Shown in pieces: positions 1,012 to 36,485 of a stretch of 39,566 bases of DNA. The stretch is from Dehalococcoidia bacterium (GTDB lineage Bacteria; Chloroflexota; Dehalococcoidia; Dehalococcoidales; UBA1222), in assembly GCA_009776515.1 (NCBI GenBank), contig WRNP01000002.1, positions 1 through 39,566 of the forward strand, written 5' to 3'. Each line of letters opens with the position of its first letter. The first letter of the stretch is position 1. A program made the position numbers and the translations under genes. The notes beneath the pieces were generated by a model. It was given only the letters and a program-made list of their open reading frames with translations. It had not been told where the DNA came from and ran no database searches.

Positions 1012-1109
1012 TTATGCGTGTAATACATGAGTTACGACCTATTTTCGGCCCCTCTCAGTCAGCGAGATCCTTAATAAAAACAGTATTTACCTAATGGCAA
1101 TGGTATGAA

Positions 1110-2213: not shown

Positions 2214-2310
2214 GCACAAAATTGCACATCGTGGCTCCGTTCGACAAACAACCTAATGGGGCAACTGCTTCCTTTTTACAGCGGTAATAATAACGATAAG
2301 GACGGAAAAA

Positions 2311-18034: not shown

Positions 18035-18370
18035 CTAAAGCGTTATCGCCTGATCTACCCCTCCGACGCTACCGAGGGCACTGTACAGGTCGGGGAAGCA
18101 CCCGATGCCAGCTTTAGATACTAAGCTGTCGGCAATATTGCGCTGGTAACAACACTGGTCACAGCCCATCACCATCATGCCGGTTTTTTCCGCCAAGGCA
18201 TTAATGCGCTGCCCCAACGGGTTATTCTTCTCGATGAGCAAGGTGTTGTCAAACATAAAGAACATGCCGACCACGTTGGCACCATGACGATTATCCTCGA
18301 GTTGTGGCACGATCATCATCGCCAGAATATCAAACGACCTGGGGCTTTCAAAGATGTAAGCAACTTTCAC
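18035..18370 (-). CDS. DsrE/DsrF-like sulfur(selenium)-relay family protein
   Basis: 111 aa. MKVAYIF..., VVGMFFMFDN, MVMGCDQCCYQRNI and VDQAITL fit the DsrE-fold pattern. The gene diverges from the ABC/reductase operon. Confidence 0.55.
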   Translation of the reverse strand: MKVAYIFESPRSFDILAMMIVPQLEDNRHGANVVGMFFMFDNTLLIEKNNPLGQRINALAEKTGMMVMGCDQCCYQRNIADSLVSKAGIGCFPDLYSALGSVGGVDQAITL

Positions 18371-18424
18371 CGATACATTTTCCTTTCAATGTTTTATTTG
18401 CGATGCTTGTGCAAAGCTGCCTTG

Positions 18425-18454
18425 ATAATAGTGGTTCATAAGTTATTTTGTCAA
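18425..18454 (-). promoter_or_regulatory. candidate promoter of the DsrE-like gene
   Basis: On the minus strand: TTGACA (18454-18449), an 18-nt spacer, then TATTAT (18430-18425). It lies within an AT-rich 247-bp divergent region. Confidence 0.5.
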
Positions 18455-18476
18455 TATGGTTAAGTTCTGTTTATAG

Positions 18477-18486
18477 CATGCGCATG
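18477..18486. promoter_or_regulatory. perfect 10-bp palindrome CATGCGCATG between divergent promoters
   Basis: The sequence is self-complementary. It shares the 8-bp core ATGCGCAT with the palindrome at 210-219 upstream of arsR. Confidence 0.3.
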
Positions 18487-18529
18487 GGAAATTGGCCACT
18501 CTTTTGTCAGTAAAAAAACAATTTTTATA

Positions 18530-18558
18530 TTGACATTAAATATTCTTTATTGTATATT
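18530..18558 (+). promoter_or_regulatory. near-consensus sigma70 promoter of the 18.6-26.3 kb operon
   Basis: TTGACA (18530-18535), a 17-nt spacer, then TATATT (18553-18558). Confidence 0.6.
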
Positions 18559-18617
18559 CCTTATGGATTTGATAAGTAAAATTTAATAGCTGGGAATGCT
18601 CAAAGGATGGTGTTTCT

Positions 18618-19466
18618 ATGTCTCAGCTCTGCGTAGAAAGCGTAACCAAGGCTTATGCTAACAACAATAAGGAAAGGCATGTCGTTCTCAGAGATTTAAG
18701 TTTCGGCGTCAGAACGGGGGAGTTCGTATCGTTGCTTGGCCCATCGGGTTGCGGCAAGACAACCATCCTCCGCATCATCGCCGGCTTTTTGAAACCCACA
18801 AGCGGGCGGATTATGATCGGCGATGACGAAGTTACCCAACCCGGCCCTGACCGCGCTTTCGTTTTTCAATCTTATGGGCTGTTTCCCTGGATGACCATCA
18901 AGGCCAATATCCTTTACCCCATGCAGCAACAGAAGATGCCCCAACCAGAGCAGGAACAGCAACTTAACATGTTGCTGGCGTTAGCCAAATTGGAGGGCAA
19001 GGAGAAGCTTTATCCACACCAGCTTTCAGGCGGTATGCAGCAGAGAACAGCAGTAATTAGAGCGCTGGCCTGTCATCCCAAGGTACTCCTAATGGATGAG
19101 CCCCTGGGAGCAGTGGATATGCAGATGCGACACAAGTTGCAGGAGGACATGGAGCGTATCTTTATTGACAGCCCCGCCACCGTGGTCATGGTAACCCATG
19201 ATGTTGATGAGGCAGTGTTTATGAGCAACCGCATCTTGGTCATGTCCGACTGCGAAGGCAAGCTCGCCGGCGACCTGTCTATCCCCCTACCTCATCCTCG
19301 CAACCGCCACAGCCTAGAATATCAACAACTCGTGAGTAAGTTGGGCGACCTATTACAGAATATGCATCACGAAAAGGAAATCAGTGATTGGAACAATATA
19401 AAAAACATTATGGAGGAAATACCGATTGAAAGCAAAGCAGCCGACTGTTGCTGTAATGCCACATAA
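18618..19466 (+). CDS. ABC transporter ATP-binding protein, NitT/TauT (SsuB/TauB-like) family, with a Cys-rich C-terminal tail
   Basis: Walker A GPSGCGKTT, signature LSGGMQQRTAVIRAL and Walker B LLMDEPLGAVD are present. The C-terminus ends ...KAADCCCNAT. Confidence 0.9.
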   Translation: MSQLCVESVTKAYANNNKERHVVLRDLSFGVRTGEFVSLLGPSGCGKTTILRIIAGFLKPTSGRIMIGDDEVTQPGPDRAFVFQSYGLFPWMTIKANILYPMQQQKMPQPEQEQQLNMLLALAKLEGKEKLYPHQLSGGMQQRTAVIRALACHPKVLLMDEPLGAVDMQMRHKLQEDMERIFIDSPATVVMVTHDVDEAVFMSNRILVMSDCEGKLAGDLSIPLPHPRNRHSLEYQQLVSKLGDLLQNMHHEKEISDWNNIKNIMEEIPIESKAADCCCNAT

Positions 19467-19986
19467 TAGAGAGGGGTTCTGTGCACAGGGTAACCGCCCA
19501 AGAGCGCGGCTGAAGATTTGCCTGTTCGCTGTTAGCGCCTACTGTTTGATAATCGCGCTTATGTTAGCTGCTTGCGGCGGCACTTCCGACATACCACTAC
19601 TACCCGGCCTGCCAGAGGCTATTGCTTTTTGGCAAAAGCAGGCACCTGATGACGCATTGGTCTTATCCATCAGCGGCGATATCAACGGCGATCGGCGGCC
19701 TGATACTTTGATTATCTATCGGACACCGAGTGGGGAATGTCTGTTTATTGGCATACTTGACACCATAGATGGTTACCAACTAACAGACACCATCATGGCA
19801 CCGCTGGAAAACCAGGCGATGTTTATCCGCAATATTGGTGGCAACCAGTCTGTGGCAGTTTTCGTGTCGGGACAAAATGGAGATAAAGTAGGCCTTGGCT
19901 GCTTTCAGCTTATCGGAGCAGAGTGGATTAATCCGTTTGGCGGGGGAATTTTCGATGGCGATTATGCCGCTTGTTGCGGCTTATAA
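19456..19986 (+). CDS. hypothetical lipoprotein with an FG-GAP-like DxNGDxxxD motif
   Basis: The signal peptide has the lipobox LMLAAC. The motif ISGDINGDRRPD is present, and the C-terminus ends ...AACCGL. The start is uncertain (ATG 19456 or TTG 19426). Confidence 0.55.
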   Translation: MPHNREGFCAQGNRPRARLKICLFAVSAYCLIIALMLAACGGTSDIPLLPGLPEAIAFWQKQAPDDALVLSISGDINGDRRPDTLIIYRTPSGECLFIGILDTIDGYQLTDTIMAPLENQAMFIRNIGGNQSVAVFVSGQNGDKVGLGCFQLIGAEWINPFGGGIFDGDYAACCGL

Positions 19987-20232
19987 CGCTAAGTACCACT
20001 TGATGGAAGCGCTCATGCGCAATATAGACGCGGGATATTGGACTCGCTTGGCGTAAGTTGGGCGACTTACTCAAAATAGGTTGCCCGAAAAGAAAGGTGG
20101 TGCCCGGAACAATGCAGAAATTTCTTAATGTCAATACCGGTCGAGCGCAACAACGGCCGATTGTTGTTAAGGTGCCACATAAGTGTGGCATATCAAACAA
20201 AAATAAAATGTCTAACAGAAAGAGAGGCTATC

Positions 20233-21420
20233 ATGGGTACACCAAATAATGGCATCTATGCCAAGTCCGGCGGGTTATCACGCCGGGAATTTCTGAAAGA
20301 TGCCGGGCTCATTATCGGCGGTGCCGCTATAGGATCTATGACTTTCTTGAATTCCTGCAAAGGATCTGATGAGCCAACGGGCTCAAGCTCTGGTGTAACA
20401 ATGGATCCTTACACTGTCAATCTTCTTTACTACAATTGTGATCACATGACCCCTGGCCCCATTGGTTATGACCTTGGCATTTATCGTGAACTGGGTGTCA
20501 ACGTCAACATCAGCGGCAATGGCAATGTTCCAACCGCCTTCGCGGCCGGGCAGGGTGACATCGGCTATGTTGGAGTGGGTAACATTGAGATAGCTGCCGC
20601 TGGTGGTGCTCCGCTGACAGTGGTAGCCGACAATTTCCTAGGTGGCTCTTATTATTTGGTAGTCGCCAACAACATTGAATCTCCGGAGGAACTACTTGGC
20701 AAACGCCTAGCATTAGGAGACCGGCCAGAAATCAACAACTCCAGCTGGGTAGCGATGGCCAATGCTCTCGACCTGCCCATTGAGGGGGATAATTACCAGA
20801 CGTCCAGCATCTCCGGTGACTCCAACAAATTTCTGGCTTTGGCTGCCGGTCAGATTGACGGCTATACCTGCTGTGACCCCTGGGGGTCTATGGCAGTGTA
20901 CGAGAAAATAGGCAAGGCCATGGGTACTTTCCTTGACGTTTTACCCGGAAACCAAAAAGCCGATTGTTGCGGGCTGACCATGAATGATTCATTCATCAAA
21001 AACCACCGCGCGTTGGCCGTAAAAATGGTGCTAGGCCATACCCGGGCAATTGAAGCCATGTATATCCACCCCCTCAAGAGTGCGCTCAGTTTCGCTAAAA
21101 CCTATGGTGTGCCGCTTGAGGTAGCCATGATGACCGTCTACCGCAAGACCAATGGCGAAGGACGCATGATGACTTGGGATATGCACACTGAGCCGAATAT
21201 TGTAACCAGGCTCGATAACACTTTTAACTACTACAAAGACATAGGCATGACCCAGTACCAAACATTGGTTCCCGCCACAACATTCGTCGACTCAACACTA
21301 CTGGATGAATGTGGGGCCAACGATTTTAATACATTTATCACAACCCAGGTTGATCCGGTGTACCCGCTGGGCATGTCATACGATGACTGGTACAAAAAGG
21401 CTCTAGAGACGGATGTCTAG
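20233..21420 (+). CDS. Tat-signal lipoprotein, ABC substrate-binding protein (NMT1/SsuA/TauA-like)
   Basis: ATG 20233 follows AGAGAGG. It has the twin-arginine motif SRREFLKDAG and the lipobox FLNSC. The periplasmic-binding-fold sequence contains two vicinal Cys pairs (YTCCDPWG and KADCCGL). Confidence 0.8.
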   Translation: MGTPNNGIYAKSGGLSRREFLKDAGLIIGGAAIGSMTFLNSCKGSDEPTGSSSGVTMDPYTVNLLYYNCDHMTPGPIGYDLGIYRELGVNVNISGNGNVPTAFAAGQGDIGYVGVGNIEIAAAGGAPLTVVADNFLGGSYYLVVANNIESPEELLGKRLALGDRPEINNSSWVAMANALDLPIEGDNYQTSSISGDSNKFLALAAGQIDGYTCCDPWGSMAVYEKIGKAMGTFLDVLPGNQKADCCGLTMNDSFIKNHRALAVKMVLGHTRAIEAMYIHPLKSALSFAKTYGVPLEVAMMTVYRKTNGEGRMMTWDMHTEPNIVTRLDNTFNYYKDIGMTQYQTLVPATTFVDSTLLDECGANDFNTFITTQVDPVYPLGMSYDDWYKKALETDV

Positions 21421-21721
21421 CCTCAGGCACCTTGGGCAGCGAGCAATGACAGAAAGCGCAACGGGCAGCTTTTCTTCGAATTGCCATTATGCCAACTTCC
21501 GACTAGCTTTGGCGCGATGGGGAGGGCAATATGTCACGACCCGCCCGGTGCCTCTCTTGACGAAAGAGCGCCCTGGTCGCCTTTCTATACCATATACCAG
21601 CAATATCGTTTTCTGGAACTGGGCAACAAGTAAGCTAGCGACCACTTGTGATCTAGACTGCTGTGGCTTTGGACTGACCGGCAATCACATAGCAAGCCGT
21701 GAGCGCCAGGGAGGAGTGTGA
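21413..21721 (+). CDS. hypothetical 102-aa ORF filling the binding-protein/permease gap
   Basis: The ATG overlaps the upstream stop (ATGTCTAG), and the ORF fills the whole ~300-nt gap. It contains CDLDCCGFG. I recognise no domain and the composition is atypical, so it may be non-coding. Confidence 0.3.
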   Translation: MSSLRHLGQRAMTESATGSFSSNCHYANFRLALARWGGQYVTTRPVPLLTKERPGRLSIPYTSNIVFWNWATSKLATTCDLDCCGFGLTGNHIASRERQGGV

Positions 21722-21724
21722 TTC

Positions 21725-22567
21725 GTGGAATCAGAACCGCGTCCGGTTTTTAATGCCAGTGCAACATTTGAAAAGCTGAAAAATACGGTCCTCGTTGGCG
21801 ATCGCGGGCGCCGCTTTCCTCAGCTTCACTGGCTGATAACGTTAGGTGTGATTTTCATAATTTGGCAGATGGCAGCCATGCGTTTCAACAACAAACTGCT
21901 GATGCCAACTCCTTGGGCTACCATTCAAGCTCTGGCATCCGCCGTGCATGATGCCGAGATACTGCAAGGTCTTGTTTACACCATGAGGCGCATCCTCATC
22001 GGGTTCTTGCTCGCCTGTGCCATAGGTTTGCCCCTTGGCTTTGCCATGGGGTATTCCAGGACTTTTCTTAAGTTCCTTGACCCCATTATCAACTCCGTCC
22101 GCCTAATCCCGATGATGGCATGGGTTCCCTTGAGCATCGTATGGTTCGGCTTGGGAGATGGTCCTTCCGTTTTCATGATTACCTTGGTTGGTATCTTCCC
22201 CATCATGCTCAGCACCATCGCCGGTGTACACGAAATTTCCCCCGACTATTACCATGCCGCACGCAGTATGGGCGCTTCGCGGTGGGGCATTTTTCGCAAT
22301 GTCATTATGCCGGGGTCACTGCCCGGTATTTTAACAGGCCTGCGCCTGGCGCTGGGAAATGGGTGGATGGCCGTCATATGAGCGGAGTTCATTGCCACCC
22401 AGTTTGGGTTTGGCCACGCAATGGTTTGGTACCAAACACTGCTTCGGACTGACATGGTGATGGCGCTAATGATTATGGCAGGTATGATCGGCTTCACCAT
22501 CGACCGCAGTATGCTGTTTCTCAATCGCAAGGCATCCAAGTGGAAATATGTTCAGGCCGCTGAATAG
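21725..22567 (+). CDS. ABC transporter permease (TauC/SsuC-like) interrupted by an in-frame TGA at 22379-22381
   Basis: GTG 21725 lies 8 nt after GGGAGGAG. The same frame continues past the TGA as AEFIATQFGFGHAMVWYQTLLRTDMVMALMIMAGMIGFTIDR..., the expected C-terminal part of a BPD-type permease. Total length is 280 codons. Confidence 0.75.
22394..22414 (+). other. stem-loop 13 nt downstream of the TGA at 22379 (candidate SECIS-like element)
   Basis: GCCACCC (22394-22400) pairs with GGGT..GGC (22406-22414) with a 2-nt bulge; the loop is AGTTT. Folded by eye only. Confidence 0.2.
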
Positions 22568-22579
22568 GGAGGAAGCATC

Positions 22580-23776
22580 ATGATTAATCCGTCAACACTT
22601 GAAGAGTACACCCAGTTAAGGCCCACCAGTCTAGAGGCATTTGAAATGCTACGGCGTGACAATGCCTCTATCCTGCTCCGTGAAAAGGAAAAGGGCAAGC
22701 GCATCATCGGGGCATATTGCACCTATTTCCCCCGCGAATTGGCCCAGGCCATGGGGGCCATCTATGTCGGTTTATGCGGCACTATTGATGCCCCGATTGC
22801 CGCTGCAGAGAAAGATCTGCCGCGCAATCTATGCCCTCTGATCAAATCTTCATACGGACTAGCTATAACCGACCGCTGTCCCTATTTCGTCATGGCCGAC
22901 ATGATCATCGGTGAAACCACTTGCGACGGCAAGAAGAAGATGTTTGAATTACTCAGCGAAAAGGGCTTAAAAAACATCTACGTCATGCACTTGCCGCAAG
23001 TACCGGATGAACCATCGTCGCTGGCGCTGTGGATATCCGAGTTACGTCGCCTGAGGACGTATCTCGAAAGCACCTTTGGGGTCACCATCACCGACGAGTC
23101 GTTACGCGAAGCCATCCATCTCACCAACGAGGAGGCCCGTGCCCGCCAGGCTATGTTCGACCTCAATAAACGCAAGCCGGCGGTACTCTCTGGTATGGAT
23201 ATGGTCAACATCACTTTTCTGACCGGATTCCAAGCCGACCGCCAAGAATCGATCCGCATGGTAGATGCCGTTACAGCAGAACTAACGGAAAAAGCCAATA
23301 ATGGGTATGCGGTGGGCACGCTCTTAACCAAGCGCATCCTATTAACTGGCACCCCCGTAGGTATCGGAAACGAAAAGGTGGTAAAGCTGGTGGAAGAAGC
23401 TGGGGCGCTCATCGTCGCCAAGGAGACCTGCGGCGGCTACAAAACCGTTGGGTTGCGCATTGATGAAAACGACCCCCGTGATCCAATCGTGCTATTAGCC
23501 GAAAAATACCTCAAGATCCCATGTTCGGTGATGTCTCCAAACGGTGACCGCCTGGGGCTACTGGAACGCATGGTGAAAGACTTCCAAGTCGATGGCGTAA
23601 TAGACCTGACATGGCAGGCCTGCCACACCTATAATGTAGAATCTTACGCCGTCGCCAAACTTGTTGAAGAAAAGTTAAGGCTGCCGTTCCTGCACTTAGA
23701 AACGGACTATTCCCAGTCAGACACAGAAACGCTCAGGGTGCGCATTGAGGCGTTTTTGGAAACCATTAATAACTAA
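22580..23776 (+). CDS. 2-hydroxyacyl-CoA dehydratase / benzoyl-CoA reductase B/C-family protein (single-subunit, double-cubane-cluster-protein-like)
   Basis: 398 aa with the family's scattered Cys ligands (AYCTYFP, GLCGT, NLCPLIK, DRCPYF, ETTCDGKKK, ETCGGYK, IPCSV, QACHTYN). It is followed by a cognate activase. Confidence 0.8.
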   Translation: MINPSTLEEYTQLRPTSLEAFEMLRRDNASILLREKEKGKRIIGAYCTYFPRELAQAMGAIYVGLCGTIDAPIAAAEKDLPRNLCPLIKSSYGLAITDRCPYFVMADMIIGETTCDGKKKMFELLSEKGLKNIYVMHLPQVPDEPSSLALWISELRRLRTYLESTFGVTITDESLREAIHLTNEEARARQAMFDLNKRKPAVLSGMDMVNITFLTGFQADRQESIRMVDAVTAELTEKANNGYAVGTLLTKRILLTGTPVGIGNEKVVKLVEEAGALIVAKETCGGYKTVGLRIDENDPRDPIVLLAEKYLKIPCSVMSPNGDRLGLLERMVKDFQVDGVIDLTWQACHTYNVESYAVAKLVEEKLRLPFLHLETDYSQSDTETLRVRIEAFLETINN

Positions 23777-23787
23777 AACCTTGTAGC

Positions 23788-23865
23788 CGCTTAGTTTATC
23801 AGACACCATCATAGGCAATGATGTTTGCAGCTATTATGGTGTTGGCGCACCTGATAAGCTAAGCG
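23788..23865 (+). other. long intergenic hairpin (15-bp stem) inside the operon
   Basis: CGCTTAGTTTATCAG (23788-23802) pairs with CTGATAAGCTAAGCG (23851-23865). All 15 positions pair in plus-strand RNA, one as a G-U pair. The 48-nt interior has its own 7-bp helix, 23803-23809 with 23836-23842. Confidence 0.5.
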
Positions 23866-23956
23866 ACGGCCAATACTGGTTGCTGGTAGCTAAAAACGGC
23901 GCGCCGCACAGTATACTCAAAAAAAATATAGCGATCCTACATAACAAAGGCGGGTT

Positions 23957-24232
23957 ATGAATAATGCAGAGATAAAAAGATGGGCATACCATGGTGACAG
24001 CATCATAATTTTCACTGAGCCATACGAAACCATCAGGGCTAATAAGCTACTACAGTCCTTTGGATTAGATGCCAAAATCGTATCACCGCACCCAAAATTG
24101 AGAATGGGCTGCTGTGCGCTGGGGCTGGAAATCAGCCTAACACAAAAAGCAGACATTGAACTTCTTTTTAAAAACCATGATATTGGTTATCACCAAATAA
24201 TAGAAAACCACGCAATGGGACACGGATCTTAG
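23957..24232 (+). CDS. DUF3343-family small protein (Pfam family annotated, from memory, as putative Se/S carrier-like)
   Basis: 91 aa. IIIFTEPYETIRANKLLQSFGLDAKIVSPHPKLRMGCCALGLEI fits the DUF3343 pattern, with its conserved Cys-Gly-type loop here as GCC. Confidence 0.6.
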   Translation: MNNAEIKRWAYHGDSIIIFTEPYETIRANKLLQSFGLDAKIVSPHPKLRMGCCALGLEISLTQKADIELLFKNHDIGYHQIIENHAMGHGS

Positions 24233-25003
24233 ATGCTTGTCTCAGGATTGGACGTGGGATCGCGCACCATCGCCCTGGTCGAATGGGATGGTGTCCAGGT
24301 GGTGCGAGAGGAGGTTGTCTTCACCGGCACCAGCCCGCTGGAAAATTCTCAAAAACTCACCAGGGGACGGCACTACGATCGTATGATAGCCACGGGCTAC
24401 GGTCGTCACTTCATCACCGAACATAGCTTGGCAGACGGCGTCATAACCGAAATCAAAGCCTATGCCCTGGGTGCCAAACAGCTTTTTCCCGATGCCCACA
24501 CCGTACTAGATATCGGCGGGCAAGATAGTAAAGTCATCCTGATGAGTGGCAACGGCAACGTTATCAAGTTTGAAATGAATGACCGCTGCGCTGCTGGCAC
24601 AGGGCGATTCTTGGAGAACATGGCTTCTGCTCTCGGCCTGAGCGTTGCGGAGTTGGGGGTCCACGCATTGCGTGCCGAGAAAAGTATCCCCCTTTCCAGC
24701 ATGTGCACCGTTTTCGCCGAAAGCGAAGTCGTTTCACTGATTGGGCAAGGCGCAGACAGCCACTGTGTGGCGCTTGGTATTCATGAGGCTATTGTTAACC
24801 GGATTAATGCAGTCGTACAAAGAGTCGGAATAAATCCTAGTTTCGTATTCGCCGGAGGGGTGGCTTACAACCCATGCATGCGCAAGTTGTTGGCCGAAAA
24901 ACTATGCCCTGAAATAAATGTCCCGTCCGACCCCCAGACCGTGGGCGCACTGGGGGCAGCTATCCAAGCACAAAACGATCTGCAGAAAGGACAGGCGTCA
25001 TGA
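24233..25003 (+). CDS. BcrA/BcrD/HgdC-type ATPase activase (CoA-substrate-specific enzyme activase family)
   Basis: It has the acetate/sugar-kinase-fold motifs GLDVGSRT and LDIGGQDSKV, and the two cluster-bridging cysteines NDRCAAGTG and SSMCTVFAES. It starts directly after the upstream stop and overlaps the next gene in an ATGA junction. Confidence 0.9.
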   Translation: MLVSGLDVGSRTIALVEWDGVQVVREEVVFTGTSPLENSQKLTRGRHYDRMIATGYGRHFITEHSLADGVITEIKAYALGAKQLFPDAHTVLDIGGQDSKVILMSGNGNVIKFEMNDRCAAGTGRFLENMASALGLSVAELGVHALRAEKSIPLSSMCTVFAESEVVSLIGQGADSHCVALGIHEAIVNRINAVVQRVGINPSFVFAGGVAYNPCMRKLLAEKLCPEINVPSDPQTVGALGAAIQAQNDLQKGQAS

Positions 25004-26034
25004 CATATTGGAGCGATGCCCTGGGCCGAGCTTGGAGTTTCCTCGCCGCATTTTTCTCGCCGGGAGTAGTCGTCGGACTTTGTTTTGCCTTTCTCCTGGC
25101 CGGAGCTATCAATATTTTCATCCCAAAATCCCTAGTAATAAAATACCTTGGAGATGGTTCCAACAAATTCCTGGCCTACTCCGTGGTCATCATAGCAGGA
25201 ATACTGCTCTCAGTCTGATCATGCACTGCTATACCGCTGTTCAGCAGTATTCGTAAACGTGGAGCCGGCCTGGGGCCAGCCATAGCCTTTTTACTGGCAG
25301 CCCCCGCGCTGGATATCGTCCCCATAGTACTTACCTTCAAGGTGATGGGTACGGTTATGGGTTGGATGCATGTACTGGGCGTAGCTGCCTTTAGTGTCAT
25401 CATGGGTTTTGCCATGCAAGCCATTTTCCGAGAAAGCCCCGAGGCATCTGCCACTAAGCTCGCGGCTGTACCTGATACCGAGATTGCTAAGCCATGGTGG
25501 ACTCACAGTATTTTTTTCGGGCTATTGATATTGGCTCTGGTCTTTGCTCTTGATGGAAACTGGCTCGCCTTAGGATGCGCCCTGATAACCTTGCTCGCTG
25601 TCCTGTTCCGTTTATATTCCAAAGAGGACTGCAAGGCATGGATTGGCGCTTCCGGCCAATTCATCAGAAGTATATTGCCATGGCTGTTGATTGGTTCCGT
25701 AGGAGCCGCCATCGTGGCCGGACTCTTGCCAAGCGCCCTGGTGCTCAGGCTGGCCGGCGGCAGCTCTCTGCAGTCTTCATTCACAGCTTCGTTTCTCGGC
25801 ACTCTACTTTATGTTTGCCCTCCCTCTGAGGTAATGTTCGCCAGGGCATTTGTTGACCTCGGTATGGGCATGGGGCCGGCTCTGGCTTTCCTGATCACGG
25901 CACCTGCTATTTCATTGCCTAGTATCATAATACTGAATCGCGTCATTGGATGGAAAAAAACTTTGACAAACACCATAATGTTAATATGCCTGGCGGCCCT
26001 GCTCGGTTTCGTACGCGGGTTTATAGTAGCATGA
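25000..26034 (+). CDS. ArsP/DUF318-family permease with an in-frame TGA at 25216-25218 on the first Cys of the CSC motif (probable selenoprotein)
   Basis: The two ORF-track pieces (25000..25218 and 25342..26034) are in the same frame, and no other stop lies between them. The read-through gives ...IIAGILLSV-U-SCTAIPLFSSIRKRGAGLGPAIAFLLAAPALD. This is the family core motif, which I recall as vCSCg.vP....G...g.a.aFL.a.P. The protein's own second half has Cys at the equivalent spot (YVCPPSE...GMGPALAFLITAPAIS). Confidence 0.75.
25225..25248 (+). other. stem-loop 7 nt downstream of the TGA at 25216 (candidate SECIS-like element)
   Basis: ACTGCT (25225-25230) pairs perfectly with AGCAGT (25243-25248). 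The 12-nt loop is ATACCGCTGTTC. Folded by eye only. Confidence 0.25.
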
Positions 26035-26047
26035 CCCAGGAGGAAAT

Positions 26048-26311
26048 ATGGTAACCATCAGGGTGTTTACCTCAATCCCCAGCTGACCATCGTGTGACTC
26101 GGAAGAGAAAAAGGCTCGCCGCGTCGCCTCAAAATTCCCCGTCGGGGAAGTACAAGTACTCACTTTCACAGCTATGTCTGAAGAGGGGGAGAAATACAAC
26201 ATTTTCCTTACTCCCGCAGTCATGGTGGATGACCGGATCATTTCTGCAGGGAAAGGCATATCTGAAAAAGAAATAGAAAAGGCAGTAGGCCAAGTAATAA
26301 ACAGAGTTTGA
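26048..26311 (+). CDS. thioredoxin-fold protein (redox-active disulfide protein 2 / MTH895-ArsE-like) with TGA at the first position of the CxxC motif (UxxC, probable selenoprotein)
   Basis: It is missing from the ORF track because of the TGA at 26084-26086. AGGAGG lies 4 nt upstream of ATG 26048. The translation is MVTIRVFTSIPS-U-PSCDSEEKKARRVASKFPVGEVQVLTFTAMSEEGEKYNIFLTPAVMVDDRIISAGKGISEKEIEKAVGQVINRV. The spacing of beta1-CxxC and the ...TPAvmvdg..i..G..s..EI tail matches the ~80-aa family. Confidence 0.7.
26094..26127 (+). other. composite stem-loop 8 nt downstream of the TGA at 26084 (candidate SECIS-like element)
   Basis: GTGAC/GTCGC, CGG/CCG and GAG/CTC helices are separated by small internal loops. 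The apical loop is AAAAAGG. Folded by eye, and weak. Confidence 0.2.
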
Positions 26312-26331
26312 TCCGTGAACCAGGATCAAAC
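26306..26331 (+). terminator. hairpin at the operon end (9-bp stem, no T tract)
   Basis: GTTTGATCC (26306-26314) pairs with GGATCAAAC (26323-26331). The hairpin overlaps the stop codon of the thioredoxin-fold gene. Confidence 0.4.
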
Positions 26332-26448
26332 CAAGGGGATTGTTAGGAAACCAAGATTATCTGCGGGTGAAAGCGTCCCGCTTTTTGCCTGTCGAGTTAA
26401 CCTACAGACGACATGATTGATTAGTGTCCGATGATATCACAAAACAAC

Positions 26449-26474
26449 ACCGAGAGGCTCAATGGCCTCTCGGT
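26449..26474 (-). terminator. intrinsic terminator for the small minus-strand gene
   Basis: ACCGAGAGGC (26449-26458) and GCCTCTCGGT (26465-26474) form a 10-bp stem. On the minus strand it is followed by GTTGTTTTGTG. Confidence 0.6.
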
Positions 26475-26509
26475 ATGCCTGTCACTGAATAGCCTACGGC
26501 AGATTATAA

Positions 26510-26725
26510 CTAACAGGCTTTACGCTTGCGACGCACAAAATGAAATTCAATACGGCGACCATTACGGGGAGTCCCCTGCTTGGCGGTGTTTTCGATAAAG
26601 GACTTCATTTCTTCTGGGGTAAGTTGATCACCTTTTTTCGGTTCGGCTTTGGCTGTTTTTGGCAAGGTGGCACTCCGTCTGTATAGAATTGACTCTATTA
26701 TAGCAGGACCCAAGTCCGCTGCCAA
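26510..26725 (-). CDS. small basic hypothetical protein
   Basis: A terminator lies downstream. A better-supported start is the TTG at 26665, 7 nt after GGAG, giving the 51-aa product MPKTAKAEPKKGDQLTPEEMKSF...RRKRKAC. I recognise no family. Confidence 0.35.
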   Translation of the reverse strand: MAADLGPAIIESILYRRSATLPKTAKAEPKKGDQLTPEEMKSFIENTAKQGTPRNGRRIEFHFVRRKRKAC

Positions 26726-27001
26726 ACAGGATCAGTAAATCCTTGGGTGACGTCCATCCTGCCACAATTATCGCGGAGAGGATCTGCGCATAACAGGCTA
26801 TCCTACCCTCGCAGGGCAACGCTCATGAAAAAGACAGGTGTAATCAAGATCATGGATTAATAATATGCGCTCCGGCAAGTGACCATGACGATGCGATGGC
26901 AATAATTGGTAGCCCAGATCCCCTAGATAGCGAACGGTGGTGCCGTCCGTAGTGGACTGGGCAGGAAATACTCCAGCCATGGATGACAAGACTGCATATG
27001 A

Positions 27002-27817
27002 CTATTGCTGGCAGCGCGGACAGTAATAGGTACCACGCCCTCGAAAAAAGATGCGCTCTATCATCCCGCCGCAACCTGCCAAACATGCCTGCCCAGCCCG
27101 GCGCGCCACTTGAAATGCCAGGTGCGCTCCCCCTTTCTCGCCGCCGGGACGGTAATAGTTGACCAAACTGGCTCCCTTGCGGGCGATACCTTCTCGGAGA
27201 ACACGACGTATCTCAGCATGCATGCGACGAACCTCTGCTTGAGTGAGCGAGCCCGCAAGGCGCTTGGGACTTAAGCGCGCCGCAAAGAGGATCTCGTCCG
27301 CATAGAGGTTACCAATTCCAGCAATGATCCCCTGGTTCAAAAGAACAGCCTTGAGGGGCAAGTTGCGCCGCGCCAGAATCTCCGAGAGGCGCTTTGCGGT
27401 GAACTCCCGCGCCAGGGGCTCCGGACCGAGTTTTTGAAGCACCGCCGCCTCCGGTCCGACTAATTCGAATCGCCCAAAACGGCGCGGGTCAACGAAGAAG
27501 AGGGCTACCCTGTCGCCAATATGAATAATGGCACGGGTGTGTTTAGGCAGTTCAGAGGAACCCAGGGACGCTTGAAATGATCCGGTCATCTTATGGTGTA
27601 CCAAAAGCAATTTGTCGCTCTCCAGACGAAAAACCAGATATTTGCCGCGCCGAGAAAGGTTCGTGACGGCTTGCCCGGCAACCTCTGCGTTAAGTTTATC
27701 CGGAGTACACGCACGCAGGGTAGATAACGAGAGAATATCTATTTTCCTGATAACCTGCCCCACAACAATGGGGGTAAGCTCATTCTTAATGGTTTCGACT
27801 TCAGGCAGTTCGGGCAT
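27002..27817 (-). CDS. mutM: formamidopyrimidine-DNA glycosylase
   Basis: The MPELPEVE N-terminus requires the ATG at 27817, not the TTG at 27820. The C-terminal zinc finger CPRCQ is present. Confidence 0.9.
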   Translation of the reverse strand: MPELPEVETIKNELTPIVVGQVIRKIDILSLSTLRACTPDKLNAEVAGQAVTNLSRRGKYLVFRLESDKLLLVHHKMTGSFQASLGSSELPKHTRAIIHIGDRVALFFVDPRRFGRFELVGPEAAVLQKLGPEPLAREFTAKRLSEILARRNLPLKAVLLNQGIIAGIGNLYADEILFAARLSPKRLAGSLTQAEVRRMHAEIRRVLREGIARKGASLVNYYRPGGEKGGAHLAFQVARRAGQACLAGCGGMIERIFFRGRGTYYCPRCQQ

Positions 27818-27879
27818 CAATGCCTCTCTTTGTTATTTTGACGAAGGCCCAAAGGCCTTTATGCCTTACGAGCGCCGTC

Positions 27880-31365: not shown

Positions 31366-31551
31366 GCCCGAGACAGAACCCAGCCATTTCTTCCTTCAAC
31401 CCCGCCATCGCTTATGTGTGTAGTAGATGCCACTTTCTTTGTGCGAGTACCCCCCAACAAGAGGAACGACTCGGTAGTTTATCAAAAACGGTCCGTTTTC
31501 GACTTCGTGCCTATTGCGACATCTTAAAAACGCAACCAGATGCCCCACCCC

Positions 31552-31580
31552 TTGACGCCAGAGCGAATCCGAGTAATAAT
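31552..31580 (+). promoter_or_regulatory. candidate promoter of the cytochrome gene
   Basis: TTGACG (31552-31557), a 17-nt spacer, then AATAAT (31575-31580). Confidence 0.35.
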
Positions 31581-31614
31581 ACTCCTTACCGAACACTTGA
31601 TTAAGGAGGGTGAT

Positions 31615-32964
31615 ATGCCTGCACACCGCACCGCCAAATTGTCGGTAGCTTTTGCCGCCACTCTCATTGCCGCCCTTGTACTTGGCTTCTCCTCGGGCGA
31701 AAAAGTTGCCGCCCAGGACGAGAGTGACTGTATCACCTGTCACGCCACGGAGACCCCGGGCGTCGTGGAACAGTGGCTTGGAAGCAAGATGTCAGAATGG
31801 TTTGACTGTAGCATGTGCCATGGGGTCGCCCACTCAACCAATGACGATGTCGATAAGGTCAATCTGCCCACCCCCAGCACCTGCGCCCCCTGCCATAGGA
31901 CTCAGGTAGAGCAGTACCGTGAGGGCAAGCATGCCCTAGCTTGGACTGCCATGAACGCCATACCGTTTGTAGCGCAAATGCCGGAATCTCTCGGGGGGGC
32001 TGATGGCTTCAAGGGTTGCTCCGGATGTCACAAGATCGGCGAGAAGACCGAGGAAGTCATGCAGGACTGGGATGCCCCTTACGGTAGCGCTTCCTGCGAC
32101 TCCTGCCATACCCGCCACCTCTTTAGCAAGGCTGAGGCACAAGACCCACGCGCCTGCCAGCTATGTCATATCGGCTTTGATCACCCGCAGTGGGAAACTT
32201 GGTCCACCGCCAAACATGGCTCCATCTGGGCCATAGAAGAAGATTCGGGCCGCACCCCCACTTGCCAGAATTGCCACCTGCCAAATGGCACCCACACTAA
32301 CATCACCGCCTGGGGCTTCTTGGCGTTGCGAGCTTATGCTGAAGATGACCCCGCCTGGCAGGCCGATCGGGAAACCATCCTCAAGGCCCTAGGGGTGCTG
32401 GATGCCCAGGGGAATCCCACCGAACTGCTGGATGCCCTGGTCGGCATCAACCTAGTGCGCACCACTGAGGAGGAATTTATGGCTCTCCGCAACCAGATGA
32501 CAGCCATCTGCGGGGAGTGCCACTCATCCGGGTTCGTTGAACAGCAGATGAATGCCAACGATGATCTCATCCGTCGGGCTGACAGTATGATGGCCGAAGC
32601 CATTGATGTGGTGAACGGCCTTTATAAAGACGGCTTCCTGGCAAAACCGACTGGCTGGGACTACGCGCCAGATCTCCTCCAATTCTATAACACTGAAAGC
32701 AATATCGAAAACGAACTGTTTACCATGTTCCTACAGTACCGCCAGCGCACTTTCGTAGGCGCTATCCATGCCAATCCCGACTACACATACTGGTACGGCT
32801 ACGCCTCTATGCAGAAATCACTCCAGACGATAAAGGATGAGGCGGAGCTCCTGCGAGCGACCAAGGACGGGACATCGCCCAGTAGCACCGTCGGCTACGT
32901 TGCATTGGGGCTGGGAGTTCTGGCGCTCCTCGCCGGCGGTTTTGCTCTCATACGTCGACATTAG
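31615..32964 (+). CDS. octaheme c-type cytochrome, hydroxylamine-oxidoreductase-like family, with a C-terminal TM anchor
   Basis: ATG 31615 lies 4 nt after AAGGAGGG and is followed by a signal peptide. There are eight CxxCH motifs (CITCH, CSMCH, CAPCH, CSGCH, CDSCH, CQLCH, CQNCH, CGECH). GFDHPQWE and HANPDYTYWYG are reminiscent of HAO-type proteins. The C-terminal helix is VGYVALGLGVLALLAGGFALI. Confidence 0.8.
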   Translation: MPAHRTAKLSVAFAATLIAALVLGFSSGEKVAAQDESDCITCHATETPGVVEQWLGSKMSEWFDCSMCHGVAHSTNDDVDKVNLPTPSTCAPCHRTQVEQYREGKHALAWTAMNAIPFVAQMPESLGGADGFKGCSGCHKIGEKTEEVMQDWDAPYGSASCDSCHTRHLFSKAEAQDPRACQLCHIGFDHPQWETWSTAKHGSIWAIEEDSGRTPTCQNCHLPNGTHTNITAWGFLALRAYAEDDPAWQADRETILKALGVLDAQGNPTELLDALVGINLVRTTEEEFMALRNQMTAICGECHSSGFVEQQMNANDDLIRRADSMMAEAIDVVNGLYKDGFLAKPTGWDYAPDLLQFYNTESNIENELFTMFLQYRQRTFVGAIHANPDYTYWYGYASMQKSLQTIKDEAELLRATKDGTSPSSTVGYVALGLGVLALLAGGFALIRRH

Positions 32965-35611: not shown

Positions 35612-35757
35612 CAGTCGCGTTTTTTCCTAACCCTAACGGTCAGACCGAGCAGGGTGCCCAAATGTTGGGAACCCCATTTTATTGTTAGAGGAGGTAACCA
35701 CCAAGAAAACATCGCGCCATGGAAAACATTGAAAGAAAAAACACAAAGGAGCAACAG

Positions 35758-36483: not shown

Positions 36484-36485
36484 CT

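What the first reader, a model, noticed from the sequence alone, without database searches (positions are those of the whole stretch)
26048..26311. Unannotated thioredoxin-fold ORF with a UxxC active site (TGA at 26084)
A strong RBS (AGGAGG) and an ATG open an 87-codon frame whose only interruption is a TGA at codon 13.

The TGA sits where the ~80-aa redox-active disulfide protein 2 / MTH895-type family has the first Cys of CxxC. Here the site reads S-U-P-S-C.

The rest of the translation keeps the family's C-terminal pattern (TPAVMVDDRIISAGKGISEKEIEKAV).

Sec replacing the attacking Cys of a thioredoxin-fold CxxC is the classic bacterial selenoprotein signature.

Standard ORF calling misses this gene and reports an out-of-frame 60-aa ORF (26094..26276) instead.
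Basis: partly seen in the sequence, partly recalled or inferred. Interest (0 to 1): 0.8.

Follow-up and report, generated by a model that had tools for sequence, protein, structure and literature searches.

The report
Missed selenocysteine thioredoxin-like gene beside permease
A small thioredoxin-fold gene that gene callers miss because its active-site selenocysteine is written as a TGA stop codon; it is real, but it is one more member of a well-known kind of bacterial selenoprotein, and the operon around it is more interesting than the gene.

Summary

**The gene.** Window 26048-26311 (+) encodes an 87-aa Thioredoxin_3 protein. Its only interruption is TGA at 26084-86 (codon 13), giving the motif S-U-P-S-C.
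- About 75 Cys-containing homologues align their CxxC onto this site.
- Four other Sec forms keep the TGA (L001, L002, L084, L083). A close relative, L003, has CPSC.
- Substitutions fall mostly on third codon positions on both sides of the TGA.
- A hairpin at 26094-26127 (+11 to +44 from the UGA) is conserved with compensatory changes in the Sec forms. It is absent from the Cys form.
- TGA ends 9 of 33 checked gene models in the window, so it is a normal stop in this organism.

**Context.** This is the last gene of a reduced SAO-type (Selenocysteine-Assisted Organometallic) operon in an uncultured Dehalococcoidia. It starts 14 nt after an ArsP_1 permease that also carries an in-frame TGA (U-S-C). 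SaoP carries a third.

**Family placement.** It reaches no curated NCBIfam cut-off: SaoT 16 bits against 65, TIGR00412 35.5 against 62. Every database entry of its subclade found here is truncated and unnamed.

**Likely role (inferred).** A selenol/thiol reductant or cargo chaperone for the Sec-containing permease.

**Verdict.** New member of a known kind. Interest is moderate.

The parts
26038..26043 (+). Ribosome-binding site AGGAGG, 4 nt before the ATG
   Evidence: Read directly from the sequence.
26048..26311 (+). Coding sequence of the 87-aa thioredoxin-fold (Thioredoxin_3) selenoprotein, motif U13-P-S-C16, stop TGA at 26309-11
   Evidence: Translation. Pfam PF13192 at 41.1 bits, above the 24.8 gathering score. 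Homologues align from residue 1 to 80. Substitutions against the orthologues fall mostly on third codon positions both before and after the TGA.
26084..26086 (+). UGA codon 13, read as selenocysteine; aligns with the first Cys of CxxC
   Evidence: Aligned to Cys in about 75 homologues and to TGA in L001, L002, L084 and L083. Aligned to the first Cys of CPHC in PDB 1FO5.
26093..26095 (+). TGT, Cys16: the resolving Cys of UxxC
   Evidence: Conserved in every homologue with a CxxC motif.
26094..26127 (+). SECIS-like hairpin, +11 to +44 from the UGA: GUGAC.UCGG..GAG-AAAAAGG-CUC.CCG.GUCGC
   Evidence: The same fold is predicted in window, L001, L002 and L084, and a hairpin at the same position in L083. 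The Cys form L003 does not form it. On 5 Sec forms, 89% of cells are paired against 31-49% when the register is slid, and 2 pairs show compensatory changes. RNAalifold finds the same structure. Synonymous sites are unusually conserved across codons 17-27 among Sec forms.
26213..26215 (+). CCC, Pro56: sits where thioredoxin-fold proteins have the cis-proline facing the active site
   Evidence: The only invariant column in the 27-sequence family alignment. Aligned to the Pro of 'VPT' in 1FO5. The cis conformation is inferred from general knowledge of the fold, not tested.
26305..26332 (+). 10-bp hairpin overlapping the stop codon, with a terminator-like site at 26365-26386 after it: probable end of the operon
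   Evidence: Terminator scan. No further + strand gene before fpg, which is on the - strand at 27002-27820.
25000..26034 (+). ArsP_1-family permease, 344 aa, with in-frame UGA at 25216-25218 (motif LLSV-U-SC-TAIP): the partner gene
   Evidence: Translation. Pfam ArsP_1 at 178 bits. SO_0444 scores 94 and SaoE 87, both far below their cut-offs. The TGA is kept in L001 and replaced by TGC in L003/L005. About 33 other loci read CSC at this motif.
25232..25249 (+). Hairpin UACCGCU-GUUC-AGCAGUA, +17 to +34 after the permease UGA: SECIS-like
   Evidence: Folds. L001 has a perfect 7-bp stem with a GGUC loop.
21725..22567 (+). SaoP ABC permease with in-frame UGA at 22379-22381 (GWMAVI-U-AEFIA)
   Evidence: Translation. 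The full-length protein with U replaced by C scores 351.8 bits on NF040733, above the 295 cut-off. The TGA is kept in L001. A conserved hairpin follows it.
18618..19466 (+). SaoA ABC ATPase, first gene of the operon; promoter-like sites at 18504-18558
   Evidence: NF040729 at 369 bits, above the 360 cut-off. Promoter scan.
19426..19986 (+). SaoC-like protein, ending ...AACCGL
   Evidence: NF040734 at 70.6 bits, below the 80 cut-off. Translation.
20128..21420 (+). SaoX substrate-binding protein
   Evidence: NF040735 at 402 bits, above the 300 cut-off.
22580..23776 (+). Double-cubane-cluster anaerobic reductase
   Evidence: NF040772 at 488 bits, above the 350 cut-off.
23957..24232 (+). Putative Se/S carrier protein (DUF3343)
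   Evidence: PF11823 at 32 bits, above the 25 gathering score.
24233..25003 (+). Acyl-CoA dehydratase-type activase (BcrAD/BadFG ATPase)
   Evidence: TIGR00241 at 217 bits.
18035..18370 (-). SaoD-like DsrE-related protein, transcribed divergently
   Evidence: NF040732 at 153.7 bits, just below the 169 cut-off.

Best explanation
**What it is.** Window 26048-26311 is a real, translated gene for an 87-aa thioredoxin-fold selenoprotein of the Pfam Thioredoxin_3 superfamily. UGA-13 is decoded as selenocysteine with the help of the hairpin that begins 10 nt downstream. This gives a U13-P-S-C16 site where ordinary thioredoxins have CxxC, facing Pro56.

**Where it sits.** It is the last cistron of a reduced SAO-type operon in an uncultured Dehalococcoidia. 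The order is saoA, saoC-like, saoX, saoP(U), double-cubane reductase, Se/S carrier, activase, ArsP_1 permease(U-S-C), then this gene. It starts 14 nt after the permease.

**How it most likely works (inferred).** It is the dedicated cytoplasmic redox partner of that permease.
- Its selenolate attacks the selenenylsulfide, or the cargo adduct, formed at the permease's U73-S-C75 site.
- That returns the permease to the reduced state that can bind cargo, or hands a soft metal(loid) or selenium-containing cargo over to it.
- Cys16 then resolves the intermediate.
- This mirrors the published 'tandem use of selenocysteine', in which a Sec glutaredoxin reduces a Sec-containing MsrA.

**Shown:** gene, frame, Sec codon, hairpin, fold family, and linkage to the permease.
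**Inferred:** Sec insertion at the protein level, the interaction with the permease, and the nature of the cargo.

**Confidence.** About 0.9 that this is a real UxxC thioredoxin-fold selenoprotein. About 0.45 for the permease-partner mechanism.
For: **Gene and frame**
- RBS, ATG and a single TGA.
- Thioredoxin_3 hit spanning the TGA, E = 1.8e-10.
- 1FO5 CPHC aligned on UPSC.
- Homologues match from residue 1.
- Differences at codon positions 1/2/3 against L084 are 3/2/10 before the UGA and 8/5/32 after it. L002, L003 and L001 show the same pattern.

**Sec**
- The TGA is conserved in L001, L002, L084 and L083. The sister form L003 has CPSC.
- The hairpin keeps the same register in the closest Sec forms. 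It shows G-C to U-A and G-C to A-U compensation. 89% of cells pair, against 31-49% when slid, and the Cys form lacks it.
- Third-position differences in the hairpin codons are 2/11, against 28/53 in the remaining codons after the hairpin (28-80).
- TGA terminates 9 of the 33 checked gene models with a valid stop, including this gene and the permease.
- Two more operon genes have Cys-aligned TGAs that are kept in L001.
- A canonical Sec-FDH lies on the sister lineage's contig.
- Dehalococcoidia MAGs with 46-49 selenoproteins are on record. GltX places the window in Dehalococcoidia.

**Permease partnership**
- An ArsP_1 permease lies upstream on the same strand in 54 of 80 related metagenome loci, directly adjacent in most and 0.5-3 kb away in some. 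The same is seen in the contexts of P0003, P0004, P0006 and L083.
- Sec and Cys co-vary between the two proteins. Window and L001 are U and U. L003/L005 are C and C. About 33 further loci are C and C. No mixed case was seen.
- The CSC motif is the most conserved motif of SO_0444/SaoE permeases, and USC variants are known.
- The tandem-Sec precedent is cited (Kim et al. 2011).
Against: - There is no protein-level evidence of Se incorporation.
- No selA, selB, selC or selD lies in the window, and there is no tRNA at all. The rest of the genome could not be searched.
- The apical loop (AAAAAGG) is unlike the G(G/U)UC loops after the permease UGA and the FDH UGA. The z-score of the window's own hairpin is only -1.2 to -1.4. 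Rfam has no match.
- The covariation rests on only 5 sequences.
- In the termite-gut lineage (L001 + L017/L085) the orthologue is split by an IS element at about codon 37, so it is dispensable there, at least recently.
- The Sec/Cys co-variation with the permease could simply reflect Sec-rich lineages. Only 2 U/U loci are verified at the DNA level.
- Nothing here shows a physical or redox interaction between the two proteins.
- The AF2 model of residues 14-87 gave no significant Foldseek match.
Confidence: 0.8

Rival explanations
1. The protein is a divergent SaoT. It would do in this reduced SAO locus whatever SaoT does in the canonical nine-gene system, which Haft & Gwadz propose is direct contact with a mercury-like organometallic species. 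It would not be a separate ArsE/MTH895-type partner of the permease. This rival concerns family assignment and overlaps with the best explanation on mechanism.
For: - The gene occupies the SaoT slot next to the efflux permease. The canonical order is saoT-saoE, and SaoT motifs include UPTC. L083 in this clade is UPTC.
- SaoA, SaoX and SaoP in the same operon pass their equivalog cut-offs.
- A MerB-like (SaoL-like) gene follows the Sec form in L002 and in the P0003 contig.
Against: - NF040730 (SaoT) scores only 16.4 bits against a cut-off of 65. No member of the clade exceeds 28 bits.
- The partner permease is not SaoE either: 87 bits against 325. SaoE was reported never to contain Sec.
- The larger Cys clade sits next to ArsP_1 permeases with no SAO genes nearby.
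Confidence: 0.3
2. The gene and the Sec are real, but the module traffics selenium or sulfur species rather than organometal(loid)s. The permease, the thioredoxin-like protein and the Se/S carrier would then form a selenium handling or delivery route serving the double-cubane enzyme or the Sec machinery.
For: - A Se_S_carrier (DUF3343) gene lies beside the module in the window, in the P0003 and P0006 contigs and in L003.
- L003 also has a class-V aminotransferase (of the cysteine desulfurase / selenocysteine lyase type) and a TusA-DsrE (YedF-like) protein immediately downstream.
- Sulf_transp (YedE-like) fragments lie in the P0003 contig.
- Double-cubane proteins are almost confined to SelD-containing genomes.
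Against: - ArsP-family permeases with a characterised function export trivalent organoarsenicals.
- MerB-like genes flank two of the Sec forms.
- No selenium transporter of this family is known.
Confidence: 0.2
3. The ORF is a pseudogene. A TGC/TGT to TGA nonsense mutation would have inactivated an ordinary CxxC thioredoxin-like gene.
For: - A single base change turns TGT/TGC into TGA.
- The orthologue in the L001/L017/L085 lineage is indeed disrupted by an IS element.
Against: - The TGA is kept in five sequences that differ by 20-60% at the protein level. Selection on codons persists on both sides of it.
- A co-conserved hairpin follows it.
- Two further Cys-aligned TGAs lie in neighbouring genes.
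Confidence: 0.03
4. Only a short product is made: either the in-frame 45-aa ORF from ATG 26174, or one of the overlapping ORFs (60 aa at 26094-26276 on the + strand, 92/73 aa on the - strand). The N-terminal 12 codons would then be untranslated.
For: These ORFs exist mechanically. Databases hold 45-79-aa truncated versions, and a - strand call exists for this contig.
Against: - Codons 1-12 are conserved with third-position bias. Homologues align from residue 1.
- The strong RBS sits before 26048, not before 26174.
- A 45-aa fragment would lack beta1, alpha1 and beta2 of the fold.
- The substitution pattern fits the thioredoxin frame only.
Confidence: 0.02
5. The UGA is read through as a standard amino acid. 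This could happen through Trp or Gly in an altered genetic code, or through near-cognate Cys or Trp suppression, so the protein would carry no selenium.
For: Altered codes that reassign UGA exist in some uncultured bacteria.
Against: - TGA terminates 9 of the 33 checked gene models with a valid stop in the window, including this gene itself.
- In-frame TGAs occur only at three positions that are Cys in homologues.
- Each is followed by a hairpin.
Confidence: 0.03

Closest known systems
SaoT, the thioredoxin-like (seleno)protein of the SAO system (NCBIfam NF040730; Haft & Gwadz, bioRxiv 10.1101/2022.07.06.499078)
   Same: An ~85-aa Thioredoxin_3/MJ0307-like protein, often with Sec in the CxxC site (UPTC, CAUC). 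It is encoded next to the efflux permease in a locus with SaoA, SaoX, SaoP(U), SaoC, SaoD and double-cubane/activase genes.
   Different: - It scores 16.4 bits against the 65-bit cut-off.
- Its motif is UPSC rather than the commonest SaoT form, CPCC.
- Its partner permease is not SaoE and itself contains Sec.
- The locus lacks SaoL and SaoB.
MTH895/ArsE family thioredoxin-like proteins (TIGR00412, 'redox-active disulfide protein 2') paired with ArsP permeases
   Same: This is the best-scoring NCBIfam model. It shares the same small Thioredoxin_3 architecture and the same gene pairing directly after an ArsP_1 permease with a C-S-C motif.
   Different: - It falls below the curated cut-off, 35.5 bits against 62. 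The whole clade, Cys forms included, stays below it.
- Sec replaces the first Cys.
- It sits in a SAO-type operon rather than an ars operon.
MJ0307 thioredoxin of Methanocaldococcus jannaschii (PDB 1FO5; TIGR00411)
   Same: The best solved-structure match. CPHC aligns on UPSC and the proline of 'VPT' aligns on Pro56.
   Different: The match is weak: E = 9e-4 and 24.7 bits against a cut-off of 92.75. MJ0307 contains no Sec and has no permease partner.
Brachyspira thioredoxin-like selenoproteins Sec.1 and Sec.2 (Pfam PF13192; Santesmasses et al. 2017, PMC5330540)
   Same: [quoted passage not shown]
   Different: There the Sec lies in a short N-terminal extension, and Sec.1 lacks the CxxC motif. 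Here Sec is the first residue of the canonical CxxC.
SO_0444-family Cu/Zn efflux transporters with a USC motif (NF033936; e.g. WP_014809615.1 of Desulfomonile tiedjei). This comparison is for the partner permease.
   Same: An ArsP_1 permease in which C-S-C has become U-S-C.
   Different: It scores 93.6 bits against the 300-bit cut-off, so it belongs to a different ArsP_1 branch.
Sec-containing thioredoxin and glutaredoxin (UxxC), including the 'tandem Sec' pair Grx-MsrA of Clostridium oremlandii
   Same: UxxC in a thioredoxin fold. A Sec-containing reductant serving a Sec-containing client is the model for the proposed mechanism.
   Different: They belong to different Pfam families (PF00085, PF00462). 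The client there is a soluble enzyme, not a membrane permease.

Membership tests
Pfam Thioredoxin_3 (PF13192) / thioredoxin fold | Score at or above the Pfam gathering threshold over the whole domain | tested here: met
   41.1 bits against 24.8, residues 3-80 on profile positions 2-75 of 76, with U replaced by C.
Pfam Thioredoxin_3 (PF13192) / thioredoxin fold | CxxC-type dyad after strand beta1 at the start of helix alpha1 | tested here: met
   U13-P-S-C16 aligns with CPHC of 1FO5 and with CxxC of all full-length homologues. The AF2 model of residues 14-87 starts with a helix at residues 16-27.
Pfam Thioredoxin_3 (PF13192) / thioredoxin fold | Conserved proline (cis-Pro) before strand beta3, facing the active site | tested here: met
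   Pro56 is the only invariant column of the 27-sequence alignment. It aligns with the Pro of 1FO5. The cis conformation itself was not tested.
Pfam Thioredoxin_3 (PF13192) / thioredoxin fold | Three-dimensional fold match to solved thioredoxin-fold structures | tested here: inconclusive
   Only residues 14-87 could be modelled, because the tool refuses the U-to-C sequence. pLDDT was 83.6. Foldseek against the PDB gave no hit with E < 1. The best thioredoxin-fold matches had TM of about 0.5 (4gwr, ArsD 3kgk).
MTH895/ArsE family (NCBIfam TIGR00412) | Score at or above the curated cut-off of 62 bits | tested here: not met
   35.5 bits. Relatives score 29-53 bits.
MTH895/ArsE family (NCBIfam TIGR00412) | Encoded directly after an ArsP-type permease | tested here: met
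   The gene starts 14 nt after an ArsP_1 permease. The same permease lies upstream on the same strand in 54 of 80 related loci, directly adjacent in most.
SaoT (NCBIfam NF040730) | Score at or above the curated cut-off of 65 bits | tested here: not met
   16.4 bits. Clade members score 17-28 bits.
SaoT (NCBIfam NF040730) | Location in a SAO locus beside the efflux permease | tested here: met
   The operon holds SaoA (369 bits, cut-off 360), SaoX (402, cut-off 300) and SaoP (352, cut-off 295). It also holds SaoC-like, SaoD-like, double-cubane and activase genes.
Canonical nine-gene SAO system (Haft & Gwadz) | Presence of SaoL (MerB-like), SaoB and SaoE | tested here: not met
   None of the long ORFs scanned against NCBIfam matches SaoL or SaoB. 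The permease scores 87 bits on SaoE against a cut-off of 325. MerB-like genes do follow the Sec form in L002 and in the P0003 contig.
Bacterial selenoprotein (SelB/SECIS-dependent UGA recoding) | In-frame UGA aligned with Cys in homologues and conserved as UGA in orthologues | tested here: met
Bacterial selenoprotein (SelB/SECIS-dependent UGA recoding) | Stem-loop starting about 10-20 nt after the UGA, conserved in Sec forms | tested here: met
   The hairpin spans +11 to +44. 89% of cells are paired, there are 2 compensatory pairs, and the Cys form lacks it. The loop sequence is atypical, and no bSECIS-specific program was available.
Bacterial selenoprotein (SelB/SECIS-dependent UGA recoding) | selA, selB, selC and selD present in the same genome | not testable with these tools
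   None lies in the 39.6-kb window. The evidence is indirect: three Cys-aligned UGAs in one operon, and a Sec-FDH on the sister lineage's contig L085.
Bacterial selenoprotein (SelB/SECIS-dependent UGA recoding) | Selenium in the mature protein | not testable with these tools
   This needs 75Se labelling or mass spectrometry.

The most novel reading that the evidence does not exclude
The thioredoxin-like protein (U-P-S-C) and the permease (U-S-C) may form an obligate selenium-to-selenium relay. A cytoplasmic selenoprotein would reduce, or load cargo onto, a selenocysteine that gates a membrane exporter through a transient diselenide or a Se-metal(loid)-Se bridge. That would explain why the two proteins are Sec together or Cys together. 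It would be the first Sec-Sec partner pair in membrane transport. It would also show that SAO-type systems can use a Sec-dependent efflux step, contrary to the published argument that the efflux arm stays selenium-independent.
Probability: 0.2. Interest if true: 0.65.

Novelty: new member of a known kind. Interest (0 to 1): 0.4.

Why it matters
- **A concrete annotation error.** The gene is absent from the public gene calls for this contig. Every database entry of its subclade found here is a 45-79-aa unnamed fragment. No curated NCBIfam model reaches its cut-off on it.
- **A third selenoprotein in one operon.** It joins SaoP and the ArsP_1 permease. This extends the SAO-type 'selenocysteine-assisted organometallic' loci to Dehalococcoidia in a reduced form that lacks SaoL and SaoB.
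- **A Sec-containing efflux permease in such a locus.** The permease and its thioredoxin-like neighbour switch between Sec and Cys together. That gives a testable handle on what these still uncharacterised systems carry: organoarsenic or mercury-like species, or selenium itself.
- **The limit of the claim.** The gene itself, a UxxC thioredoxin-fold selenoprotein, is the classic and expected kind. A specialist would not be surprised by it.

Tried and rejected
- **Word-indexed protein search** with the U-to-C sequence found nothing.
- **The genome-contig scan** gave only one locus, L001.
- **The 27-sequence alignment** was too diverse for the metagenome scan. A 7-sequence alignment worked.
- **Rfam** gave no match at gathering thresholds over the whole window, nor at E <= 10 over 25150-26400. 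This says little about bacterial SECIS elements.
- **The profile search with the broad alignment** was swamped by MerR-Thioredoxin_3 fusion proteins. It was useful only for showing that named relatives are called 'thioredoxin family protein'.
- **Structure.** The full-length protein could not be submitted because of the internal stop. The model of the 74-residue fragment was confident, but Foldseek found nothing significant. That result is inconclusive and is not counted as evidence.
Only their gene contexts could be used.
- **The cluster look-up for taxonomy** gave no names. GltX homologues did: Dehalococcoidia at 65-74% identity.
- **Two papers are not held.** These are Haft & Tolstoy 2025 and Chen et al. 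2015 on ArsP.
- **Rejected readings.** Pseudogene, 45-aa ORF, overlapping ORFs and an altered genetic code are all set aside under the rival explanations.
Full report
**1. The observation**

The sequence is as described. AGGAGG lies at 26038-43 and the ATG at 26048. The frame has 87 sense codons and ends at TGA 26309-11. Its single internal TGA is at 26084-86 (codon 13), giving ...FTSIPS-U-PSCDSEEKK.... The gene begins 14 nt after the stop codon of the upstream gene.

The mechanical ORF list shows only an in-frame 45-aa remnant (26174-26311), an out-of-frame 60-aa ORF (26094-26276) and a 92-aa ORF on the minus strand. The window is ENA assembly ERZ27257302, contig k141_2780538. Its public gene calls contain no gene for this frame and call a 73-aa minus-strand ORF instead.

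**2. It is a thioredoxin-fold gene read through the TGA**

- With U replaced by C, the protein matches Pfam Thioredoxin_3 over residues 3-80. E = 1.8e-10, 41.1 bits against a gathering score of 24.8.
- The best solved structure is the MJ0307 thioredoxin, 1FO5. Its CPHC aligns on UPSC and its active-site proline on Pro56.
- An exhaustive HMMER search of 1.84 billion representative proteins, using residues 14-87, found only 30 relatives at E <= 1e-3. The full-length ones carry CxxC exactly at the U position. About half are N-terminally truncated at 45-66 aa.
- A metagenome scan returned 80 loci, 78 of which match from residue 1 or 2. About 70 read FG(S/T)xPPCAKC. L003, L004 and L005 read FTSTPTCPSC. 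L002 reads FTSTPS-TGA-PSC.
- Two further Sec forms were recovered with DNA: L084 (FTSSPS-TGA-PSC) and L083 (HSTFT-TGA-PTC).
- In a neighbour-joining tree the Sec forms and the CPSC form make one clade, [U/C]-P-[S/T]-C. It is separate from the large CAKC clade.
- Differences between the window and its orthologues fall mostly on third codon positions on both sides of the TGA. Against L084 the counts at positions 1/2/3 are 3/2/10 before the TGA and 8/5/32 after it. So the twelve codons upstream of the TGA are under the same coding constraint as the rest.

**3. The TGA means Sec rather than stop, mutation or a different code**

- TGA ends 9 of the 33 checked gene models in the window that end in a valid stop, including this gene and the permease.
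- In-frame TGAs occur at just three places in the window, and each is a conserved Cys in homologues:
  - this gene;
  - the ArsP_1 permease (25216-18, LLSV-U-SC);
  - SaoP (22379-81, GWMAVI-U-AEF).
- All three TGAs are kept in the Dehalococcoidia MAG locus L001.
- Downstream of UGA-13 a hairpin spans 26094-26127 (+11 to +44). The same structure in the same register is predicted for L001, L002 and L084, and a hairpin at the same place for L083. The Cys form L003 does not form it.
- On the five Sec forms, 89% of pair cells are standard pairs, against 31-49% when the 3' partners are slid by 1-3 columns. Two pairs show double changes (G-C to U-A twice, G-C to A-U once). RNAalifold predicts the same structure independently.
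- Among Sec forms the hairpin codons (17-27) have few synonymous differences. Against L084 the count is 2/11, compared with 28/53 in the codons after the hairpin. Against the Cys form it is 7/11.
- The permease and SaoP UGAs are also followed by conserved hairpins. The permease hairpin has a G(U/G)UC loop.

Caveats:
- The window's own hairpin is not exceptional energetically (z about -1.3).
- Its loop (AAAAAGG) is not of the GGUC type.
- Five sequences is a small sample.
- Rfam has no match.

**4. The Sec trait in this organism**

- The window holds no sel genes and no tRNA, and the rest of the genome could not be reached.
- GltX places the window in uncultured Dehalococcoidia, with 65-74% identity to named MAG proteins. 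MAGs of that class with 46-49 selenoproteins are on record.
- Contig L085 comes from the same sample and belongs to the sister lineage of L001/L017. It carries a formate dehydrogenase interrupted by TGA at the canonical NVDNCARL-U-HAPTVAG site. A GGUGGCC-GGUCU-GGCCACC hairpin follows it.

**5. Context**

The gene closes an operon that starts at about 18618. The operon reads as follows.

| Gene | Coordinates | Evidence |
|---|---|---|
| SaoA | 18618-19466 | 369 bits, cut-off 360 |
| SaoC-like | 19426-19986 | 71 bits, cut-off 80 |
| SaoX | 20128-21420 | 402 bits, cut-off 300 |
| SaoP, with Sec | 21725-22567 | 352 bits, cut-off 295, once read through |
| Double-cubane reductase | 22580-23776 | 488 bits, cut-off 350 |
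| DUF3343 Se/S carrier | 23957-24232 | PF11823, 32 bits, gathering score 25 |
| Activase | 24233-25003 | TIGR00241, 217 bits, cut-off 125.4 |
| ArsP_1 permease, with Sec | 25000-26034 | Pfam ArsP_1, 178 bits |
| This gene | 26048-26311 | Pfam Thioredoxin_3, 41.1 bits |

A SaoD-like gene is transcribed divergently at 18035-18370. A hairpin and a terminator-like site follow the gene's stop codon.

This is the SAO ('Selenocysteine-Assisted Organometallic') neighbourhood of Haft & Gwadz, but in a reduced form. No SaoL or SaoB lies in the window. The permease is neither SaoE (87 bits, cut-off 325) nor SO_0444 (94 bits, cut-off 300).

Elsewhere the thioredoxin-like gene follows an ArsP_1 permease:
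- A permease lies upstream on the same strand in 54 of the 80 related metagenome loci. It is directly adjacent in most and 0.5-3 kb away in some.
- The same holds in the contexts of P0003, P0004, P0006 and L083.
- Sec forms are flanked by MerB-like genes in L002 and in the P0003 contig.
- Se/S-carrier genes flank the module in the window and in the P0003, P0006 and L003 contexts.
- L003 also has a class-V aminotransferase and a TusA-DsrE protein downstream.

**6. Mechanism**

Sec and Cys states agree between the two neighbouring proteins wherever both could be read:
- Window and L001 are U and U.
- L003 and L005 are C and C.
- About 33 loci of the CAKC clade are C and C.
- In the P0003 and P0004 contigs, split or truncated permease calls sit beside truncated thioredoxin-like calls, which fits U and U.

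Three further points bear on the mechanism:
- C-S-C is the most conserved motif of these permeases, and USC variants are known.
- ArsP exports trivalent organoarsenicals.
- A Sec-glutaredoxin is reported to have adapted to reduce a Sec-MsrA (reference cited).

From this I infer that the UPSC protein is the cytoplasmic reductant or cargo chaperone of the permease's U-S-C site. The interaction and the cargo are not shown. A rival reading is selenium or sulfur trafficking, suggested by the Se/S carrier, YedF-like and desulfurase-like neighbours.

**7. Comparison with what is known**

- UxxC selenoproteins with a thioredoxin fold are the classic bacterial type.
- Thioredoxin_3 already has Sec members: SaoT, the Brachyspira Sec.1 and Sec.2 proteins, and the TsoC, TsoX and HUIPC families.
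- This protein reaches no curated cut-off. TIGR00412 gives 35.5 bits against 62, TsoC 30.2 against 45, TIGR00411 24.7 against 92.75, and SaoT 16.4 against 65. Its relatives, Sec or Cys, do not reach them either.
- All database entries of the Sec subclade found here are 45-79-aa fragments that are unnamed or labelled 'hypothetical protein'.
- It therefore works like SaoT or ArsE, but it is not a member of either curated family.

**8. Verdict**

- Novelty: a new member of a known kind.
- Interest is moderate at 0.4. The gene type is expected. The three-selenoprotein reduced SAO operon in Dehalococcoidia, and the paired Sec in the permease and its thioredoxin-like partner, are the parts worth following up.

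Noticed in passing
window 25000-26034 (TGA at 25216-25218): The ArsP_1 permease directly upstream is also an unannotated selenoprotein candidate with the motif LLSV-U-SC. Public gene calls split it into 72 + 225 aa. The TGA is kept in L001 and is TGC in L003/L005. A hairpin with a G(U/G)UC loop follows at +17 to +34. It is neither SaoE nor SO_0444 by curated cut-offs.
   Followed up: yes
window 21725-22567 (TGA at 22379-22381): The SaoP ABC permease has an in-frame TGA (GWMAVI-U-AEFIA). Read through, it passes the SaoP equivalog cut-off (352 bits, cut-off 295). Public calls split it into 218 + 37 aa.
   Followed up: yes
window 18035-26311: This is a reduced SAO-type locus in a Dehalococcoidia. 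SaoD-like, SaoA, SaoC-like, SaoX and SaoP are present. Double-cubane reductase, Se/S carrier and activase genes are embedded in the operon. No SaoL (MerB-like) or SaoB lies in the window. SaoC-like ends in ...AACCGL rather than Cys-Cys-COOH.
   Followed up: partly
L001 6001-6211; L017 1-255; L085 1-299: In the termite-gut and sister lineage the orthologue is split at about codon 37 by an IS element. L085/L017 begin with an rve-type transposase C-terminus (..RYHYHRPHLGLEMKTPLSYVSQEG*) and the IS end GACTGGTAGATATTTACGG. The inverted copy of that end follows codon 37 in L001.
   Followed up: partly
L085 4836-7553 (TGA at 5913-5915): A formate dehydrogenase alpha subunit is split by TGA at the canonical site NVDNCARL-U-HAPTVAG. 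The hairpin GGUGGCC-GGUCU-GGCCACC follows it. The contig is from the same sample as the window, and this shows Sec decoding in the sister lineage.
   Followed up: partly
window 292-3186: An arsenic gene cluster lies about 22 kb upstream. It holds an ArsR-ArsC fusion (292-1011), an ACR3 arsenite efflux transporter (1110-2213; 437 bits) and an ArsM arsenite methyltransferase (2311-3186; 349 bits, cut-off 263). An ArsM that makes methylarsenite in the same genome would fit an ArsP-like export role for the Sec permease.
   Followed up: no
L003 5432-7478: Downstream of the Cys-form orthologue lie a class-V aminotransferase (of the cysteine desulfurase / selenocysteine lyase type), a Se/S carrier (81 bits) and a TusA-DsrE fusion (YedF-like). 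These are selenium- or sulfur-trafficking genes next to the module.
   Followed up: partly
L002 685-1206; P0003 contig (no DNA): A MerB-like (alkylmercury lyase family) gene immediately follows the Sec-form thioredoxin-like gene. This is the SaoL-type partner that the window lacks.
   Followed up: partly
P0009, P0020, P0031-P0116: A large group of proteins fuses an N-terminal MerR-type DNA-binding domain to a C-terminal Thioredoxin_3 domain of this same branch, with the motif LPCSRC. They may be redox- or metal-sensing regulators.
   Followed up: no
window 26312-27001: About 690 bp after the gene has no convincing ORF. It contains a strong 12-bp hairpin at 26447-26476 (minus-strand terminator-like, probably serving fpg) and an 11/12 promoter-like site on the minus strand at 26725-26697.
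   Followed up: no
window 35719-38711 and 31540-32964: A xanthine-dehydrogenase-family molybdenum hydroxylase, with a small Fe-S subunit and a large subunit, and a multihaem c-type cytochrome. Neither was examined further.
   Followed up: no
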